The notes: a model not told the origin generated them from the letters alone. Positions 6,268-15,379 are shown, counted from the first letter of the stretch. The stretch is DNA of 64,000 bases from Escherichia coli (GCF_030013205.1 NZ_CP122648.1); one strand, 5' to 3'. Program-made: numbers and translations.

Positions 6268-6359
6268 TTTATTAACGCGATTGTAAAACTGCGGTTTTTA
6301 CTCGTTTACAACGCGTGCGCTGGACATTACCATCCTCCTCTGCGATTTATCATCGCAAT

Positions 6360-6437
6360 CAAACGACTCGGGGTGCCCTTCTGCGTGAAGGCTGAGAAAT
6401 ACCCGTATCACCTGATCTGGATAATGCCAGCGTAGGG
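6360..6437 (+). repeat. Left copy of 78-bp direct repeat: TPP-riboswitch aptamer segment without downstream expression platform (att-like)
   Basis: Identical base-for-base to 15250-15327; sequence diverges immediately on both sides. Confidence 0.85.
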
Positions 6438-6520
6438 GGCCAAAATAGTCTTGAAAATTATGTGGTTGTATCTCTTTTTGACCATAAATCATGCTGTTAA
6501 GGTACAAAAAGGGGTCGTTT

Positions 6521-7828
6521 ATGAGGTCAAGAACTCTCCCATACACATTTCAGCGAAACGGTAATTACTATCTACAAATCCGGCTTTCGGATGGTCGGAT
6601 ATACAAAAAATCACTTTTTACTGACAGTTATCGCGAAGCATCGGCGTTGATGATTGGCCTTACTCCGCACATTCCTTTCGTTAAATCACTCGCTACTCCG
6701 TTGCCGCAATTTAATAAGTTTGTTTCAAACTTGATCGCTTCGTCACGTAACGTAATGATTCCGTTGCCACTCCCTCAGCAATTGAACAATATTTCTAAAG
6801 AAGTTTTGCAGCTTCAACCACCAGCCAAACCGGAAAAGGTGCTAACACTTGCTGATGCGTGGGCTATGTACAAGGAGGAAAGAGGTCGAAATTGGACAAA
6901 ATCGATCTCAATGGCAAATGAGCGTTATATGGAGGTATTGCTTGTTGTCTTGGGAAAAGAAACAGACGTAACGGCAATCACCAAACAAGATATTAAGCGA
7001 GTAATGGAAACTGTCGAAAACTTACCAAAGCGTGTAGTGCAACCGTATAGGTCAATGACTATTCAGCAACTAATCGAATGTGATGATGTGCTGCCAGAGG
7101 ATTTAGTTGGTGCTGAGGCTGTACATAAGCACCTTAAAATCTACAAATCGTTATTCAAAACATTTCTGACTGAAAACAAAGATATTCTATCTAAGTCTCC
7201 GACTGATGGAATAGTAGCGGCACCATCCAAAGCTAGGTTTGGTGCATACAGTGCAGCAGAAATGAAAAAATTTGTAGGATGGGCACTAAAGCAGCCTGAT
7301 GGATGGCAGAAGTGGATCACTTTGTTGTTGGCGTACACAGGAGCCAGAAGAGGTGAGATTGCTAAACTGGAGAAGTCGCAGATCAAATTTGATGAAGATA
7401 GCCAGCGGCACTATCTTCTGATCGCGGAAAGAAGGCTGGGTAAAACTGAGAATGCTACAAGACAGGTAGTGATTCATCCCAAACTGATTGAGTGGGGGTT
7501 TCTGGATTTTGTTAACCGCCAATGGAAAGAGAAAATCTTTTCGGAAGTCTCAGGTCGAAATATGTCAAAGATAGGTAAAGTTCTTTCAGATGTTCGTGAT
7601 CAGCTTGATATTCCTTATCTTGATGATTATGGGCAGCGGCGCTTGGTGCATAGTTTCCGGCATACTATGATTTCTACTTGTTTAGCTGGTTGGGTGAGTA
7701 ATTTGGCGCATCTGCAACAGGTGGTAGGTCATGAGAAAAGCGGTTTAGGGATTACCAGACGCTATTTGCACTCTTTTCCTTTACGTTCAATTTGTTACGT
7801 GATTGATGGTTTGGACTGGTTAAATTGA
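6521..7828 (+). CDS. Tyrosine site-specific integrase (phage/P4-like integrase family)
   Basis: C-terminal catalytic motifs TGARRGE, HSFRHT (HxxR) and RRYLH (Tyr nucleophile); ATG 6521 with AGGGG RBS preferred over 6491. Confidence 0.85.
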   Translation: MRSRTLPYTFQRNGNYYLQIRLSDGRIYKKSLFTDSYREASALMIGLTPHIPFVKSLATPLPQFNKFVSNLIASSRNVMIPLPLPQQLNNISKEVLQLQPPAKPEKVLTLADAWAMYKEERGRNWTKSISMANERYMEVLLVVLGKETDVTAITKQDIKRVMETVENLPKRVVQPYRSMTIQQLIECDDVLPEDLVGAEAVHKHLKIYKSLFKTFLTENKDILSKSPTDGIVAAPSKARFGAYSAAEMKKFVGWALKQPDGWQKWITLLLAYTGARRGEIAKLEKSQIKFDEDSQRHYLLIAERRLGKTENATRQVVIHPKLIEWGFLDFVNRQWKEKIFSEVSGRNMSKIGKVLSDVRDQLDIPYLDDYGQRRLVHSFRHTMISTCLAGWVSNLAHLQQVVGHEKSGLGITRRYLHSFPLRSICYVIDGLDWLN

Positions 7829-7869
7829 TGTGAGCCTCGTGAGAAAGGGAATAAATAGAGAAAATCAAG

Positions 7870-7897
7870 TTGTTACCTCATTGGCAGGGGATATAAT
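7870..7897 (+). promoter_or_regulatory. Candidate sigma70 promoter for nuclease gene
   Basis: TTGTTA-16 bp-TATAAT, ~30 bp upstream of ATG 7928; followed by near-palindrome TGACCATATTGTCA (possible operator). Confidence 0.45.
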
Positions 7898-7927
7898 GAC
7901 CATATTGTCATCTTGAGGAACAAAAGT

Positions 7928-9499
7928 ATGGTTGCTCGTTCTAACCTTGTAAATTTAGATGCACTGATTAAGCGTGCTGATTTAGGTTTAAAGATCCAAG
8001 ATAACTCTTCATTTGAAACGCTAAACAGTATTCCTGCAAGAGAATTGAAATCAGGAAGTGGAATTGCTGCGCTTCTGAGAAAACCAGATTTCCAGCGTGA
8101 AACAAATCATTGGGGGCCTGAGCAGGTTGTATCGCTTCTCGAATGCTACATCAATGGTGATTTGATACCTTCCGTTATTCTTTGGCGGTCTTCAACCCAT
8201 CTTTTTGTGATCGATGGTGGTCATCGTTTAAGTGCGTTACGTGCTTGGGTTGAAGATGATTATGGCGACGGTCATATATCCCATCAACTTTTTGGGCATG
8301 ATATTCCTCGTGAACAACGCCGCGCTGCAGATAGAACGAGAAAGCTTGTGAAGGAGAGGGTCGGTAGCTGGGAATATTATCAGAAGTTGCTTGCCGATGA
8401 TGCTTCATTGACCGAGGAACAGCAGAGAAGAATCAGCGTATTAACATCTCGTGGAATCTCAGTCCAATGGGTAGTGGGTGATGTAGATAAGGCAGAAACT
8501 TCATTTTTTAACATCAATATGAAGGGAACTCCTCTTGATGCTATCGAAGAGATGCTTCTAAAAAATCGCAAGAAAAGTATTCCGATAGCAACCCGAGCAA
8601 TTATTCGTGCCGGTAGAGGTCATCGCTATTGGTCGGGGTTTGATCAGAGCATTGCCCAGCAACTTGAAGATAAATCTGCAAAGCTGCATCGTTTGCTGTT
8701 CGAACCTGAAGTTGATCGCCCTATTAAAACTCTTGATCTTCCATTAGGCGGTTCTAGGGGGGTCAGGACAGCGATCCAAGTTTTGAAAGATTTCTTACTG
8801 ATCACTGATTGCAACCAGAATGGTGTTTTGAAAAAAATCGAAGCCTACCCTGATGATGCGTCGGGTGCTGATACGTTAAGAATCCTTTCCAAAGCCACAT
8901 CATTAAGCAATAGAATTACAGGCAATGGCGATGGTAGCTTGGGGCTTCATCCAGCGATTTATTTTTATGGTCCGACTGGAATCCACTCAACGCCAATGTT
9001 TCTAGGAACTGTGCTACTGGTGGCAAAACAACTCTCTAACAATAATGGTCAATTCTTTAAAGACTTCACAACAATCAGATCTAGGCTTGAGAGAATAATG
9101 ATCGAATTTAAGGACTTGATCGCAATGATAGTACAAAAACCAGGTAGTAATGTCCGAGTGGCTCGCTACTGTGATTTTTTAAATGCGGTGATCAAATCAC
9201 TCAAGCAGGGAGAGAATATTGATGAGAGTAAGCTTATCGAGCTGGCCGAATTGGAGGGGAGAATACTCTCTGGAGATTTTAAGAGAACATCAGCAAAAAT
9301 CAGCGATGAACAAAAAAGTAAGGTGTTCATTGACGTGGCTCTGCGCAACGCTTTGAAATGTCCGATTTGCCAAGGTTACCTTGATACTGAAAAGTCAGTT
9401 TCTTATGATCATATCGTACGTGTCCGTGAGGGAGGAGATGGTAATTCTGACAATGTACAGTTGACACACCCTTACTGTAACCAGTCAGTGAAGTGTTAA
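7928..9499 (+). CDS. ParB-like (DUF262/DGQHR-type) N-terminal domain fused to C-terminal HNH endonuclease; candidate defence/type IV restriction-like nuclease
   Basis: N-terminal motifs PDFQRETNHW and VIDGGHRLSAL; C-terminal CPICQ…YDHIVRV…NSDNVQLTHPYCN (HNH with Cys ligands); GAGGAA RBS before ATG 7928. Confidence 0.6.
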   Translation: MVARSNLVNLDALIKRADLGLKIQDNSSFETLNSIPARELKSGSGIAALLRKPDFQRETNHWGPEQVVSLLECYINGDLIPSVILWRSSTHLFVIDGGHRLSALRAWVEDDYGDGHISHQLFGHDIPREQRRAADRTRKLVKERVGSWEYYQKLLADDASLTEEQQRRISVLTSRGISVQWVVGDVDKAETSFFNINMKGTPLDAIEEMLLKNRKKSIPIATRAIIRAGRGHRYWSGFDQSIAQQLEDKSAKLHRLLFEPEVDRPIKTLDLPLGGSRGVRTAIQVLKDFLLITDCNQNGVLKKIEAYPDDASGADTLRILSKATSLSNRITGNGDGSLGLHPAIYFYGPTGIHSTPMFLGTVLLVAKQLSNNNGQFFKDFTTIRSRLERIMIEFKDLIAMIVQKPGSNVRVARYCDFLNAVIKSLKQGENIDESKLIELAELEGRILSGDFKRTSAKISDEQKSKVFIDVALRNALKCPICQGYLDTEKSVSYDHIVRVREGGDGNSDNVQLTHPYCNQSVKC

Positions 9500-9887
9500 A
9501 ATCACGTTTCACTTTTCGTTGTCATTTGTATCGAACGTTTTTGAGAAAGGGCAGGATTGCGAGCGAGTTACCAGCGTAAACAGATAAATACTGTTTTCGT
9601 AAGCCCACTGTCGCCGCTTTCCGCTCTGCAATTTTTGCTTGTCGGGGGGCTAATTGTGGCTTTGCTTGCCATAACATTAAAAGTCAGTAATATACTGAAA
9701 ATTAATACAATACTTTTCATATATCCCATTGAATATTCAGTTCATTGCCAAATAGCAAGCGGAGCACTCTCTCTTTAACGTTGTAGTAACTTAGTTGAAC
9801 AATTTTATAATATAATTTGTCTAAGTTGGTTGATGTATCAAAGCCTTTTTCTGAAGAATGAATTGGCGTGATTACTCACGCCAGATT

Positions 9888-11516: not shown

Positions 11517-11564
11517 AAAATCCCCTTGATGTATCGATTTGGCACCACTCCAATGCAAATGAGT

Positions 11565-11660
11565 GTGTTGTATTCATTTGGTCTGTTTCAAGCCTTATGG
11601 ATACGGAATATTACACGATTTAGCTGTATTCATTTGGTATGCCTAATGGATACGCAGGGG
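11565..11660. promoter_or_regulatory. res-like recombinase binding sites upstream of the serine recombinase gene
   Basis: Two similar subsites TGTATTCATTTGGT…ATGGATACG with internal imperfect dyad symmetry, directly upstream of recombinase start. Confidence 0.4.
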
Positions 11661-11769
11661 GATAGATTAAATGGTGTTCTGTTTATACAGGTTTATTTGT
11701 TAGATCAACAAGTTGGCATTTCTAAACAGATGTTTGAACGTTGCCAAATGCCTTGACAACACAAGAAAA

Positions 11770-12720
11770 TGGCTTGCTATGAACGCATTACACGAAATAA
11801 GGCTATAAAAACAAAATAAATTTTAAAATTTGCACAAAAACGAGAAAACTCGTTCGACAAATAATAGATTGGTTTTTAATCGACAATTTCTGACAATTTC
11901 TGATGGTGCTCTGTAAACCGCATTACACAAGGCTTTGCGAAAGTGATGTAAAAGTGAAGAAAGTTAACATTGCACTTTGAAGCCATTTTTCATTGGATTT
12001 TTTAGTAGGGAATTACACAGGGAATAGAGAGCATTATTCTATGATTTACACAGGGAATATAGGGGATTATGGCACACACATAGAAAGGCATTACACAGAG
12101 TGAGTGCTATGTGATGATTGGTAGTAACGGTAGGTCACTGTGAGCTACCCCCCACAGAATTCTGTTACCCCTATCAAGTCTAACAGGGGTTTATAAAGAA
12201 TAATAAACCGATGATACCCCTATCAATATTGATACCCCTATTAGCTTTGATATGACTACCCCTATCAAAACTGATACCCGATAAGAATAAGTTAATAAGA
12301 ATAATTAAATAATATTCTTTATATCTATATATATGATCTTTTTGCCTTCCGGCGTTAGCTTCACTCTCTGGCAAGCAGCCTTACTCCGCTATCTTTGGGC
12401 TTCGTGGCTGGCCCGTTCCGCTCACACCGAAAGCAAAGCGTTACTCTTCTTCGTGTAACTATCGTTGGCGGTAACGCCACACGAAGAAATACTATTGCGC
12501 TGTGCGCAGTAAGAGTAATCACCTAACCAATCACCTGATTGCTTACGTGTTAACTCTCTCTAACTCTTAATTACCCTCCTACATTTAATAACTCTATTAT
12601 TCTCTGTAGTTGTGTAATTACTCGAAGAGAGAGCGGCTAAAGCTCAATTACACTCTGCTTTCCTCGTGTAATTTCACTAAGCCTCAATACAATTTCACTT
12701 CCTACATTCTGTAGTCGTGT
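11770..12720. repeat. Iteron-like repeat cluster in 1.9 kb ORF-free AT-rich region (putative origin or regulatory hub)
   Basis: Five direct copies of (C)ATTACACAG at ~11777-12100, four copies of TACCCCTATCAA at ~12163-12270, reverse-orientation GTGTAAT copies at ~12451-12715. Confidence 0.5.
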
Positions 12721-13503
12721 AATAGTTTTCGGTGGGGAAAAGCCAGAGGCGACACCGAAAGAAAATTCTGATCTTATTAATCTTATCTATCTTAGTTAAT
12801 CTTCTTACTTACTTTATCTACTTTATTATTAATAATAGCTTTATAAGCTCTCTGTGTAGCTCTCTGACGCAAGAAACAGCATTCAGGAAGGGAATCACCT
12901 TAGAAAAGTGTTCTTTGCGTCATAATGTGTTTTATGAAGGATTCAGAGGTGTTTCATAACACAAGGTATAGAGGATATTTTAGTTAATTAAAAATAAGGG
13001 GGCTAAATGCTTCTCTAACAGCATTAAGCAGGGTAGAGAATGGAAATGCATTGCCTACGTATATATAAACTCACTACAAGGCTTTACAGAGCGTTTTATA
13101 AAGTAACTAATCTAAGAACTCTCTGTTTTATATCTATCATCATCTTTCCATCATCTAACAAATACAAAATAAGCCCCTTAAATAAGCCTCTGGCGAGCTA
13201 AACAGCCATTACATAAGGGAATGTATTTCTTTTATCAAAACTTCGTTAGAACGCGTTTTAGAGCGTTTTATACAATAAGGAAGAATAGGACCGTCCGCAA
13301 GAGCACGAATTGCTAAGAAAGAATGTAAACGCATGAAAAATATCAGATTTTTTATGAAAATATATTGACAAATGTTTCTTTATATGTAATAATAGGTATT
13401 AGAGAGACAGAAAAACATTCTTCTCTAAATAATCAAAATCAATGCACTTTGAAGCCGTCAGGCTTGCAAGGTGTTTTTCTTTTAACTGAATAAGGAGTTT
13501 TTT

Positions 13504-13936: not shown

Positions 13937-14599
13937 ATGATTAAACATACAAAACCTTTCTTAGGAATAGATTATGACTTACTAGCAATCACTTCCCTAG
14001 TGATTAACGGCAAAACAAAAGAAGTAAAACTACATCATAAGATCATTTATTCTTATTTGTTAAGTTTATCTGGCACATATCAAAAGGTAACACCATCTTT
14101 GAAAGGTATTGGTGAGCGGTTAGGAGTAGGTACAGATCAGACGGTACGCCGTCATATCAAAGATCTTGTTTCTTTTGGATGGTTGAAGATTGAGGAAAGG
14201 GCAGGTAGCACAAATGCTTATATTGTCCTTCCTTATGAACAAGAAGCCCAGACACAACAAGAAGCTACCGTTAAAGCTGTTCAGGAACAGCTTCCCCCTA
14301 CGGAAGATAATAAAGAGTTTTCTTTTGATGTTCTTGATGATTGGGATGCGCCTTTACCTTGGGAAATGGAAGAAACGCCATCTGATGAAAAGGTAGCTAA
14401 TGATAATGAGGAGGATGTGTTAGAGAATTTTGCCTCTCTTATCATCCAGGAGAAACACACAAGAACAGGAGGGGCATCATTTATAGAATTTGCAACATCG
14501 TTAGCCTGTAAGCACAGGATAAAGCTACCAAATGGTATTGAGGCATATTTTGCTAAGAAACATCCCAAAGTATATGAAGACTTTGATATTCCATTTTAA
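13937..14599 (+). CDS. HTH (winged-helix-like) protein with acidic linker; possible iteron-binding replication or regulatory protein
   Basis: 220 aa; AAGGAG RBS; HTH-like segment LKGIGERLGVGTDQTVRRHIKDLVSFGWL; sits beside iteron region. Confidence 0.45.
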   Translation: MIKHTKPFLGIDYDLLAITSLVINGKTKEVKLHHKIIYSYLLSLSGTYQKVTPSLKGIGERLGVGTDQTVRRHIKDLVSFGWLKIEERAGSTNAYIVLPYEQEAQTQQEATVKAVQEQLPPTEDNKEFSFDVLDDWDAPLPWEMEETPSDEKVANDNEEDVLENFASLIIQEKHTRTGGASFIEFATSLACKHRIKLPNGIEAYFAKKHPKVYEDFDIPF

Positions 14600-15052: not shown

Positions 15053-15249
15053 ATTTAGAAAAATAATATTAATTAGCTAATTAATATAATCAATGGTTTT
15101 CACCATCTGAATGATAGCCGTTAATTGTTTCTTTTTCATTCCTTCTATGGGGTACAAAATGGGGTACACAGAGAAGAAGCAATTAATGGAGGCGAGCTTG
15201 CATCTGCAAGCCACTTCCCCTAAGCTGGCACAAAATATAGAGATTCAAC

Positions 15250-15327
15250 CAAACGACTCGGGGTGCCCTTCTGCGTGAAGGCTGAGAAATACCCGTATCA
15301 CCTGATCTGGATAATGCCAGCGTAGGG
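15250..15327 (+). repeat. Right copy of 78-bp direct repeat (part of intact thiM riboswitch)
   Basis: Identical to 6360-6437. Confidence 0.85.
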
Positions 15328-15379
15328 AAGTCACGGACCACCAGGTCATTGCTTCTTCACGTTATGGCAGGAGCAAACT
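15250..15379 (+). promoter_or_regulatory. thiM TPP (THI-box) riboswitch: aptamer plus expression platform
   Basis: Sequence CGACUCGGGGUGCCCUUCUGCGUGAAGGCUGAGAAAUACCCGUAUCACCUGAUCUGGAUAAUGCCAGCGUAGGGAAGUC… recognised as thiM riboswitch; directly precedes thiM start. Confidence 0.9.

What the first reader, a model, noticed from the sequence alone, without database searches (positions are those of the whole stretch)
7928..9499. Cargo gene: 523-aa ParB-like (DUF262/DGQHR-type) domain fused to an HNH nuclease - candidate single-gene defence system
The N-terminus carries the paired signatures PDFQRETNHW and VIDGGHRLSAL that characterise DUF262/DndB/GmrS-type ParB-like NTPase/nuclease domains. The C-terminal ~45 aa has a zinc-ribbon HNH pattern (CPIC…YDHIVRV…NSDNVQLTHPYCN). 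A ~250-aa middle region has no motif I recognise. It resembles GmrSD/SspE-type type IV restriction enzymes but is compact and sits as solitary cargo beside the integrase, the usual place for anti-phage cargo on small mobile elements. It has its own strong promoter (TTGTTA-16-TATAAT) with a palindrome over the start site.
Basis: partly seen in the sequence, partly recalled or inferred. Interest (0 to 1): 0.85.

Follow-up and report, generated by a model that had tools for sequence, protein, structure and literature searches.

The report
Uncharacterised DUF262–HNH nuclease cargo gene
A single gene carried in the swappable cargo slot of a small E. coli island encodes an untested relative of the GmrSD restriction enzymes, built with a different nuclease module, and it most likely protects the cell from phages.

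Summary
Window 7928-9499 (+) is an intact 523-aa gene. Pfam finds GmrSD_N/DUF262 (E=1e-11) and a zinc-type HNH (E=3e-4), but no DUF1524.

The family is large: 373 of about 100,000 species genomes, across many phyla. Its length is constant, and the DUF262 and HNH active-site residues are invariant or nearly so. The 250-aa helical middle domain has no solved structural relative.

No neighbouring gene is conserved (at most 9 of 73 loci), so it works as a single gene. It sits in cargo positions of P2-like prophages, a P4-like satellite, a Pf prophage and plasmids.

In E. coli, sister islands with the same backbone carry a McrA-like type IV restriction enzyme in exactly this slot. That supports the defence reading, which remains experimentally untested.

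PADLOC does not recognise the gene, and no paper found describes it. Every characterised DUF262 defence nuclease uses DUF1524, so this is a new variant of a known kind.

One unexplained extra: 9 of 73 loci, plus phage KL3 and a Vibrio prophage, place it next to or inside a Dcm/EcoRII-type m5C methylase cassette, usually with Vsr. It therefore cannot be a generic m5C-dependent enzyme.

The promoter is plausible but statistically unsupported.

The parts
7811..9852 (.). Swappable cargo cassette of the island. It holds the last codons of the integrase gene, the promoter, the gene, a terminator-like hairpin and about 340 nt of non-coding DNA.
   Evidence: Homology to sister islands with other cargo (L106, L107) ends at window 7809-7810 and resumes at 9853-9865.
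7870..7897 (+). Sigma-70-like promoter candidate, TTGTTA-16-TATAAT.
   Evidence: 10 of 12 matches; site count in the region not above chance. Hexamers invariant in 4 enterobacterial copies. It lies inside the swapped cassette, so it travels with the gene.
7915..7919 (+). Shine-Dalgarno sequence GAGGA, 8 nt before the ATG.
   Evidence: Sequence; invariant.
7928..9499 (+). CDS of 523 aa, the DUF262-helical-HNH protein (WP_021293132.1).
   Evidence: AlphaFold2 model has pLDDT 91 and pTM 0.88.
7928..8062 (+). N-terminal extension (res 1-45) with the conserved motif VNLDALIxRxD (L10, D11, A12, R16, D18 conserved in at least 90% of sequences).
8075..8566 (+). DUF262/GmrSD_N ParB-Srx-fold domain (res 50-213). 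Motifs: QR (Q56-R57), DGxHR (D96, G97, H99, R100) and FxxxN (F193...N197), all invariant.
8567..9307 (+). Family-specific all-helical middle domain (res 214-460). Conserved SLGLHPxxYFY (res 337-347), and invariant R384 and E388.
9347..9487 (+). Zinc-type HNH (beta-beta-alpha-metal) nuclease, res 474-520. Proposed zinc ligands C478, C481, H514, C517. Proposed catalytic residues D494-H495, N509, N518.
   Evidence: Pfam HNH. Profile hits to Gme HNH 4H9D, Cas9 HNH and group II intron maturase. Foldseek 4H9D probability 0.98. Residue conservation.
9487..9513 (+). Terminator-like hairpin overlapping the stop codon, followed by a T-run.
   Evidence: 10 pairs, 3 of them G-C; pattern match only.
6521..7828 (+). 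Tyrosine integrase of the island (context, island backbone).
   Evidence: PHROG integrase.
6356..6437 (+). Left 82-nt direct repeat (attL core), equal to most of the thiM TPP riboswitch aptamer.
15246..15327 (+). Right 82-nt direct repeat (attR core), inside the intact TPP riboswitch upstream of thiM.

Best explanation
The gene encodes a self-contained, single-protein nuclease that a mobile element carries to exclude phages or other invading DNA. It has three modules. The N-terminal DUF262 (ParB/Srx fold) domain has an intact nucleotide pocket. By analogy with BrxU, SspE and DndI, it would bind and hydrolyse an NTP and act as the sensor and switch. A family-specific helical domain links it to a small zinc-stabilised HNH domain that nicks or cuts DNA. 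Shown here: the architecture, conservation of both active sites, the absence of any partner gene, and the cargo-slot and hotspot locations. Inferred: NTPase activity, nuclease activity, anti-phage function, and how self is told from non-self. The most likely discriminator is a chemical feature of foreign DNA, such as hypermodified cytosines as for GmrSD. I put that sub-claim at about 0.35. It is not plain 5-methylcytosine, because the gene routinely sits beside Dcm-type methylases.
For: Domains: Pfam GmrSD_N E=1.1e-11 and HNH E=2.9e-4, found in 55 of 58 family members each (GmrSD_N at E<=0.001; HNH at E<=0.1, 42 at E<=0.001). Selection: invariant K52, F55, Q56, R57, T59, W62, D96, G97, H99, R100, F193, N197, C478, C481, H495, H514 and C517; D494, N509 and N518 conserved in at least 90% of 58 sequences that are 29-74% identical to the query. 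Structure: model pLDDT 91. The closest solved structures are the three DUF262 defence nucleases BrxU, SspE and DndI, and the HNH core matches the Gme HNH nickase. Single gene: 746 flanking ORFs from 73 species-level loci were clustered, and no family occurs in more than 9 loci or at a fixed position. Sister islands show that the neighbouring HTH and 115-aa ORF belong to the backbone. Defence context: the same E. coli backbone carries a McrA-like mREase_IV (PADLOC 1.3e-23) in the same slot. Homologues occur in P2-like prophages beside LlaJI or EcoRII RM systems, between gpD and ogr, in a P4-like satellite between Ogr/Delta and the integrase, in the Pf8 prophage accessory end, and beside type I HsdR. 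Maintenance: 39 of 40 close E. coli copies are full length. Mutating the DGQQR arginine or the His-Me histidine abolishes defence in HEC-06 and GrwA (10.1101/2024.01.29.577857; 10.1101/2024.11.23.624991), and the equivalent residues R100 and H495 are invariant here.
Confidence: 0.6

Rival explanations
1. Self-mark reader. The protein is still a defence nuclease, but it uses Dcm/EcoRII-type CCWGG 5-methylcytosine on host DNA as the 'self' signal, much as DndI and SspE read phosphorothioate. Methylated DNA would switch it off or release it, and unmethylated incoming DNA would be cut.
For: A C5-methylase lies within a few kb in 11 of 73 species-level loci, and in 9 of them it is Dcm-type (53-70% identical to the c0 query). 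Phage KL3 and a Vibrio prophage show the same pairing. The methylase family is 53% identical to E. coli Dcm, including the target-recognition region, while the accompanying restriction enzymes differ (c3, c12, LlaJI). In L060 and L063 the gene sits inside the co-directional cassette, with Vsr starting 3-6 nt after its stop. The linked members are one fixed clade of 6 plus at least 6 scattered lineages. E. coli hosts almost always have dcm-vsr (5,367 of 5,426 genomes). DndI gives a precedent for a DUF262 nuclease restrained by a host DNA mark (PMC11662687).
Against: About 85% of loci have no adjacent methylase, and I could not check the rest of those genomes. RM cassettes are the commonest defence-island residents, so clustering alone could give some of this signal. 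Dcm sites are sparse, and it is unclear how they could protect a whole chromosome.
Confidence: 0.12
2. Abortive-infection effector. The DUF262 domain senses a phage protein or a replication intermediate rather than a DNA modification. The HNH then degrades host and phage DNA indiscriminately, killing the infected cell.
For: The gene is single, with no immunity or methylase partner. DUF262 also occurs in Menshen and Dazbog, whose triggers are not simple modified bases (PMC10952713). The weak PADLOC hit is to Menshen NsnA.
Against: High sequence conservation across phyla argues against a sensor locked in an arms race with phage proteins. All solved or tested DUF262-nuclease fusions read DNA chemistry.
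Confidence: 0.12
3. Housekeeping or selfish function of the mobile element: a ParB-like segregation or regulatory protein, a nickase for element replication or transfer, or a homing-type HNH endonuclease.
For: ParB-fold proteins serve partition and regulation. Pf8 gp01 is annotated 'putative repressor C protein'. The E. coli island has a Rep-like gene and iteron-like repeats. In the Enterobacter cloacae complex the gene sits directly after an integrase gene, at several different chromosomal sites.
Against: The gene occurs on at least five unrelated element backbones and also alone in chromosomes. Sister islands with an identical backbone dispense with it and carry other cargo, so it is not needed for the element's own life cycle. 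No HTH or centromere-binding domain was found.
Confidence: 0.08
4. DNA-repair accessory nuclease, for example acting with Vsr or UvrA on damaged or deaminated DNA.
For: Operon-like spacing with Vsr in L060 and L063. Adjacency to uvrA or ssb in Acinetobacter and Pseudaeromonas.
Against: The patchy, horizontally transferred distribution (about 0.4% of species, 53 of 5,426 E. coli) and the phage and satellite cargo positions are not what a repair factor shows. Vsr in these loci is explained by the m5C methylase.
Confidence: 0.04

Closest known systems
GmrSD-family type IV restriction enzymes (GmrSD, BrxU/HEC-05, HEC-06, TgvB, GrwA)
   Different: The nuclease is a roughly 45-aa zinc-binding PF01844 HNH, not the large DUF1524 domain (0 of 58 members hit DUF1524). 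The motif is DGGHR/DGAHR, not DGQQR. The middle domain has no detectable similarity. PADLOC models do not detect it. Identity to BrxU is 13%.
SspE and DndI (phosphorothioate-sensing DUF262-DUF1524 nickases)
   Different: No dnd or ssp genes occur in any of the contexts examined. DUF1524 is absent. The N-terminal extension motif is different.
McrA-type HNH type IV enzymes
   Same: Small zinc-type PF01844 HNH at the C-terminus of a single-protein restriction factor. A McrA-like gene occupies the identical cargo slot in sister E. coli islands.
   Different: The N-terminal sensor is unrelated (DUF262 plus helical domain). Only 27% identity over the HNH region. McrA cuts m5C DNA, which this family must tolerate.
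DndB / DGQHR-domain proteins
   Same: ParB-fold with His in the fourth position of the D-G-x-H-R motif.
   Different: No hit to DndB or DGQHR models in Pfam or NCBIfam. DndB has no nuclease domain and is a regulator in dnd operons.
Menshen NsnA / Dazbog / PD-T4-2 (other DUF262 defence proteins)
   Same: DUF262 domain in a defence setting without DUF1524. There is a weak NsnA hit (2e-5, res 52-111).
   Different: Those are multi-gene systems with separate effectors. Here the nuclease is fused and no partner gene is conserved.
'ParB-CTPase fused to HNH' fusions noted in a 2025 survey (10.1101/2025.10.10.680097)
   Same: The same general idea: a ParB-fold nucleotide switch fused to PF01844 HNH, reported there as a novel, uncharacterised bacterial fusion.
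   Different: That survey does not mention DUF262 or GmrSD at all (0 occurrences). Whether it includes this family could not be determined.

Membership tests
GmrSD family (type IV restriction, DUF262 + DUF1524) | N-terminal DUF262/GmrSD_N domain | tested here: met
   PF03235 E=1.1e-11, model positions 12-196 of 199; 55 of 58 homologues.
GmrSD family (type IV restriction, DUF262 + DUF1524) | DGQQR nucleotide-hydrolysis motif | tested here: inconclusive
   D96, G97 and R100 are invariant, but the two Gln are replaced: DGGHR here, DGAHR consensus, H99 invariant. The essential Arg is kept; the effect on chemistry is unknown.
GmrSD family (type IV restriction, DUF262 + DUF1524) | C-terminal DUF1524 (GmrSD_C) His-Me finger domain with a (D/E)HxxP motif | tested here: not met
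GmrSD family (type IV restriction, DUF262 + DUF1524) | Cleavage dependent on modified cytosine (hmC or glc-hmC), stimulated by NTP | not testable with these tools
   Needs phage plating and biochemistry. Indirect constraint: the protein coexists with Dcm-type m5C methylases.
HNH endonuclease superfamily (PF01844, beta-beta-alpha-metal) | H-N-H/N catalytic motif with zinc-binding Cys/His pairs | tested here: met
   PF01844 E=2.9e-4 (best family member 3.7e-8). Profile hits to 4H9D, Cas9 HNH and 6ME0. Foldseek 4H9D probability 0.98. C478, C481, H495, H514 and C517 invariant; D494, N509 and N518 at least 90% conserved.
SspE / DndI phosphorothioate-dependent systems | Genomic linkage to sspABCD or dndBCDE modification genes | tested here: not met
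   No such genes in any annotated context. No recurrent neighbour cluster other than m5C RM genes.
Known PADLOC v2.0 defence systems | Significant match to a system model | tested here: not met
   Only NsnA at 2.2e-5 over 60 residues and PDC-M55C at 0.016.
Defence-island / mobile-element cargo gene (operational class) | Occupies a variable slot where alternative alleles are known defence genes | tested here: met
   The same E. coli island backbone carries a McrA-like mREase_IV (1.3e-23) or a 316-aa unknown in the slot. Homologues occupy P2, P4 and Pf prophage cargo positions.
Canonical ParB (partition CTPase) | ParB N-domain plus HTH centromere-binding and C-terminal dimerisation domains, next to parA | tested here: not met
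   No ParBc, HTH or parA was found. Foldseek to ParB structures gives E>0.1.

The most novel reading that the evidence does not exclude
The family is a new kind of epigenetic self/non-self reader. It would be a DUF262-HNH nuclease held in check by Dcm/EcoRII-type CCWGG 5-methylcytosine on host DNA, as DndI is by phosphorothioate, and it would attack DNA lacking that mark. This would give the long-enigmatic orphan Dcm methylation of enterobacteria a defence partner, and would explain why the gene is repeatedly embedded in Dcm-Vsr cassettes that have interchangeable restriction enzymes.
Probability: 0.12. Interest if true: 0.8.

Novelty: new variant of a known kind. Interest (0 to 1): 0.5.

Why it matters
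If the gene is confirmed as a defence gene, current detectors miss a widespread restriction-like nuclease. It is present in 373 of about 100,000 species genomes across many phyla, and on P2-like phages, satellites, Pf prophages and plasmids. That would show the DUF262 sensor can be wired to a minimal classical HNH instead of DUF1524, through a helical domain with no solved counterpart. It would also add a compact, single-gene enzyme that might recognise a DNA modification, which could be useful as a reagent. The repeated embedding in Dcm-Vsr cassettes gives a concrete, cheap experiment (dcm+ against dcm- hosts) that could connect Dcm methylation to immunity. If the result is negative, it is simply one more GmrSD-like variant.

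Tried and rejected
- NCBIfam gave only noise (IscB HNH, E=0.098).
- PDB sequence searches with the protein and with the family profile found only HNH domains, and no DUF262 structure.
- Foldseek against the PDB gave no hit at E<=0.001.
- I considered a PT-dependent SspE/DndI-like role and rejected it for lack of dnd or ssp neighbours.
- I considered a terminase-associated phage HNH, because KL3 gp44 lies next to the portal gene. I rejected it because the gene also occurs on islands, plasmids and chromosomes without packaging genes.
- I considered the neighbouring HTH and 115-aa ORF as antitoxin or regulator partners. I rejected this because they stay in sister islands that carry other cargo.
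- The HTH gives only generic C-protein/XRE hits.
- The leader hairpin and palindrome are not significant.
- Literature searches found no description of this family. The KL3 paper lists gp44 as unknown, and the KKP paper only draws a DUF262/HNH gene in a neighbourhood figure.
- Rfam found no TPP aptamer upstream of the integrase in the Enterobacter loci, so riboswitch targeting is not general for the module.

Full report
**1. What is there**

The window is E. coli chromosome, 100% identical over the island to porcine ETEC strains such as ETEC1748. Coordinates 7928-9499 (+) hold an intact 523-aa ORF with an ATG start and a GAGGA Shine-Dalgarno sequence 8 nt upstream. RefSeq annotates the same ORF as 'GmrSD restriction endonuclease domain-containing protein', WP_021293132.1.

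Pfam confirms both domain calls. GmrSD_N/DUF262 (PF03235) matches residues 50-213 at E=1.1e-11 and covers almost the whole model. HNH (PF01844) matches residues 478-520 at E=2.9e-4. There is no DUF1524 hit.

The promoter-like TTGTTA-16-TATAAT is at 7870-7897 and a terminator-like hairpin is at 9487-9513. However, promoter-like sites in the island are no more frequent than in shuffled sequence (26 against 23.8 +/- 5.8). The 'palindrome' has 5-bp arms, and its fold is unremarkable (z = -0.28). The hexamers and the Shine-Dalgarno sequence are invariant in four enterobacterial copies, but those copies are 94% identical overall.

**2. The element that carries it**

The gene lies in an island of about 8.9 kb inserted between rcnR and thiM. 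The island is bounded by 82-nt direct repeats (6356-6437 and 15246-15327) that make up most of the thiM TPP-riboswitch aptamer. Rfam detects the aptamer at both ends, at 61.9 and 71.2 bits.

The whole island is in 37 of 5,426 complete E. coli genomes. The gene at 99% identity or more is in 40 genomes, and 39 of those copies are full length.

About 157 genomes carry related islands, and 136 have the same attL junction. In the islands without the target gene, homology to the window stops at 7809-7810 and resumes at 9853-9865. The stretch between is replaced by one of two genes. One is a 241-aa HNH protein that matches PADLOC's type IV methyl-directed restriction enzyme model (mREase_IV, E=1.3e-23; Pfam HNH 1.2e-12). 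The other is a 316-aa protein with no hit anywhere.

So window 7811-9852 is a self-contained swappable cassette: promoter, gene and terminator. The downstream 115-aa ORF, HTH gene and serine recombinase belong to the backbone and are not partners of the gene.

**3. The family**

A search of 5.8 billion protein clusters gave 2,908 hits. An exhaustive search of the 50%-identity representatives gave 900 hits at E<=0.001 and 308 at E<=1e-30. Most of the full-length hits align end to end at about 510-580 aa; the list also contains shorter, partial sequences.

A scan of one genome per species found relatives in 373 genomes. They span Proteobacteria, Bacteroidota, Cyanobacteria, Verrucomicrobiota, Planctomycetota, Nitrospirota, Acidobacteriota, Actinomycetes, Armatimonadota and a CPR genome, at 39-66% identity to the query apart from two 97%-identical enterobacterial copies. 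PHROGs holds it as phrog_29172, function unknown (E=4e-226).

In an alignment of 58 diverse members, the three signature motifs of DUF262 are invariant: Q56-R57; D96-G97-x-H99-R100; and F193...N197. The motif names (QR, DGQQR, FxxxN) come from 10.1101/2024.11.23.624991.

A complete HNH motif is also conserved. C478, C481, H495, H514 and C517 are invariant, and D494, N509 and N518 are conserved in at least 90% of sequences. Profile alignments to Gme HNH (4H9D), a Cas9 HNH and a group II intron maturase place H514 and C517 on the second zinc-ligand pair and N518 on the last catalytic position. This makes it an H-N-N type zinc HNH.

Other conserved elements are an N-terminal motif (L10, D11, A12, R16, D18) and, in the middle domain, SLGLHPxxYFY (337-347), R384 and E388.

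**4. Structure**

**5. Solitary or partnered?**

I clustered 746 ORFs lying within 6 kb of the gene in 73 species-level loci. No family occurs in more than 9 loci, and none holds a fixed adjacent position. Annotated contexts agree:

- A Vibrio P2-like prophage, after cI and beside a LlaJI RM system.
- Burkholderia P2-like phage KL3, between an EcoRII RM system and the portal gene. The authors listed gp44 as unknown.
- An E. coli O103/O145 P2-like prophage, between gpD and ogr.
- A Yersinia P4-like satellite, between Ogr/Delta and the integrase.
- The accessory end of Pseudomonas Pf8 prophage, where it is mis-named 'repressor C'.
- Plasmids of Enterobacter, Pantoea, Burkholderia and Microvirga.
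- A locus beside type I HsdR and IS21.
- A phage-like element in the Enterobacter cloacae complex.
- Apparently plain chromosomal sites in Acinetobacter, Colwellia and Pseudaeromonas.

**6. An unexpected recurrent neighbour**

The commonest neighbour clusters are a type II C5-methyltransferase (PADLOC 9e-159), Vsr (3e-38) and two unrelated type II restriction enzymes. A C5-methylase lies within a few kb in 11 of 73 loci, and in 9 of them it is 53-70% identical to the c0 query (Dcm/EcoRII-type). KL3 and the Vibrio prophage show the same pairing. That methylase family is 53% identical to E. coli Dcm (E=2e-132), including the target-recognition region.

In L060 the order is methylase, small ORF, gene, Vsr, restriction enzyme, all co-directional, with Vsr starting 6 nt after the gene's stop. 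In L063 the order is methylase, restriction enzyme, gene, Vsr, with a 3-nt gap.

On a neighbour-joining tree, the linked members form one clade of six from four phyla, plus at least six scattered lineages. E. coli itself carries dcm-vsr in 5,367 of 5,426 genomes.

At minimum this means the enzyme does not attack Dcm-type m5C DNA. It may also mean the two are functionally coupled.

**7. Mechanism**

Best-supported reading, at 0.6: this is a single-protein nuclease defence. By analogy with BrxU, SspE and DndI (PMC10952713, PMC11662687), the DUF262 pocket binds and hydrolyses an NTP and gates a fused nuclease, here a minimal zinc HNH. The helical domain would provide coupling, DNA binding or dimerisation.

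What is shown is the architecture, purifying selection on both sites, single-gene status, and the cargo-slot and hotspot locations. Everything biochemical is inferred.

How it discriminates targets is open. Hypermodified bases, as for GmrSD, are the default at about 0.35. Rivals are an m5C self-mark model (0.12), an abortive-infection effector (0.12), an element-housekeeping or selfish role (0.08), and a repair role (0.04).

**8. Comparison and novelty**

Every characterised DUF262 defence nuclease I could find pairs DUF262 with DUF1524. This includes GmrSD, BrxU/HEC-05, HEC-06, SspE, DndI, TgvAB, GrwAB and ECOR17 GmrS1/GmrSD2. This family fails that defining feature in 0 of 58 members, changes DGQQR to DGxHR, and is invisible to PADLOC v2.

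A 2025 survey notes 'ParB-CTPase fused to HNH' as a novel uncharacterised fusion. No paper in the library mentions WP_021293132.

I therefore do not file it as a GmrSD-family member. I class it as a new variant of the same kind: a DUF262-gated His-Me-superfamily nuclease.

Interest is moderate at 0.5. A specialist would not be surprised by another GmrSD-like variant. The breadth of the family, the novel middle domain, the clean cargo-slot evidence and the Dcm-cassette linkage still make it a good, cheap experimental target.

Noticed in passing
window 6356-6454 and 15246-15345: The island is integrated inside the thiM TPP riboswitch. 82-nt direct repeats covering most of the aptamer flank it, and Rfam RF00059 scores both copies above threshold (61.9 and 71.2 bits). 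The left, chimeric copy keeps the native upstream DNA and now precedes the integrase gene. The right copy, with thiMD, has island DNA upstream. 136 E. coli genomes share this junction. A riboswitch aptamer used as an attachment site, and a possible TPP influence on integrase or altered thiMD expression, seem unusual.
   Followed up: partly
L107:8287-9237 (sister island, same slot as window 7811-9852): A 316-aa protein (WP_001007828.1) occupies the same cargo slot in a subset of E. coli islands. It has no Pfam or PADLOC hit, so it is another untested candidate defence gene. A third slot variant is a 241-aa McrA-like HNH (L106:8020-8745).
   Followed up: partly
window 11560-13500: About 2 kb without an annotated CDS inside the island. 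It contains iteron-like direct repeats (12010-12070, 12163-12279) upstream of a Rep/DnaD-like gene (13937-14599). This may be a replication origin, which would make the island a replicative integrative element or satellite. There are no Rfam hits.
   Followed up: no
L060, L063, L048, L061, L064, L066, L070, L078, L050; L012 (phage KL3); L002: The DUF262-HNH family is repeatedly adjacent to, or embedded in, Dcm/EcoRII-type m5C methylase cassettes, usually with Vsr. The restriction enzymes in those cassettes differ (two unrelated type II families, and LlaJI). The methylase family is 53% identical to E. coli Dcm.
   Followed up: partly
L004 (Acinetobacter) and L019 (Pseudaeromonas): In two distant genera the gene sits next to uvrA (and ssb) with no mobile-element genes nearby. 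This could be coincidence or an integration hotspot.
   Followed up: no
L014-L018 (Enterobacter cloacae complex): A 97%-identical copy of the gene sits directly after an integrase gene at the start of a phage-like element (capsid E and tape-measure genes). The element is inserted at several different chromosomal sites, and no TPP aptamer was detected upstream.
   Followed up: partly
L013 (Pseudomonas phage Pf8, gp01): The Pf8 homologue (38% identity, full length) is annotated 'putative repressor C protein'. This is almost certainly a mis-annotation of a DUF262-HNH cargo gene.
   Followed up: no
window 9514-9852: About 340 nt of non-coding DNA travels with the cassette downstream of the gene. 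It contains only an unannotated 73-aa TTG ORF (9557-9778), and its role is unknown.
   Followed up: no
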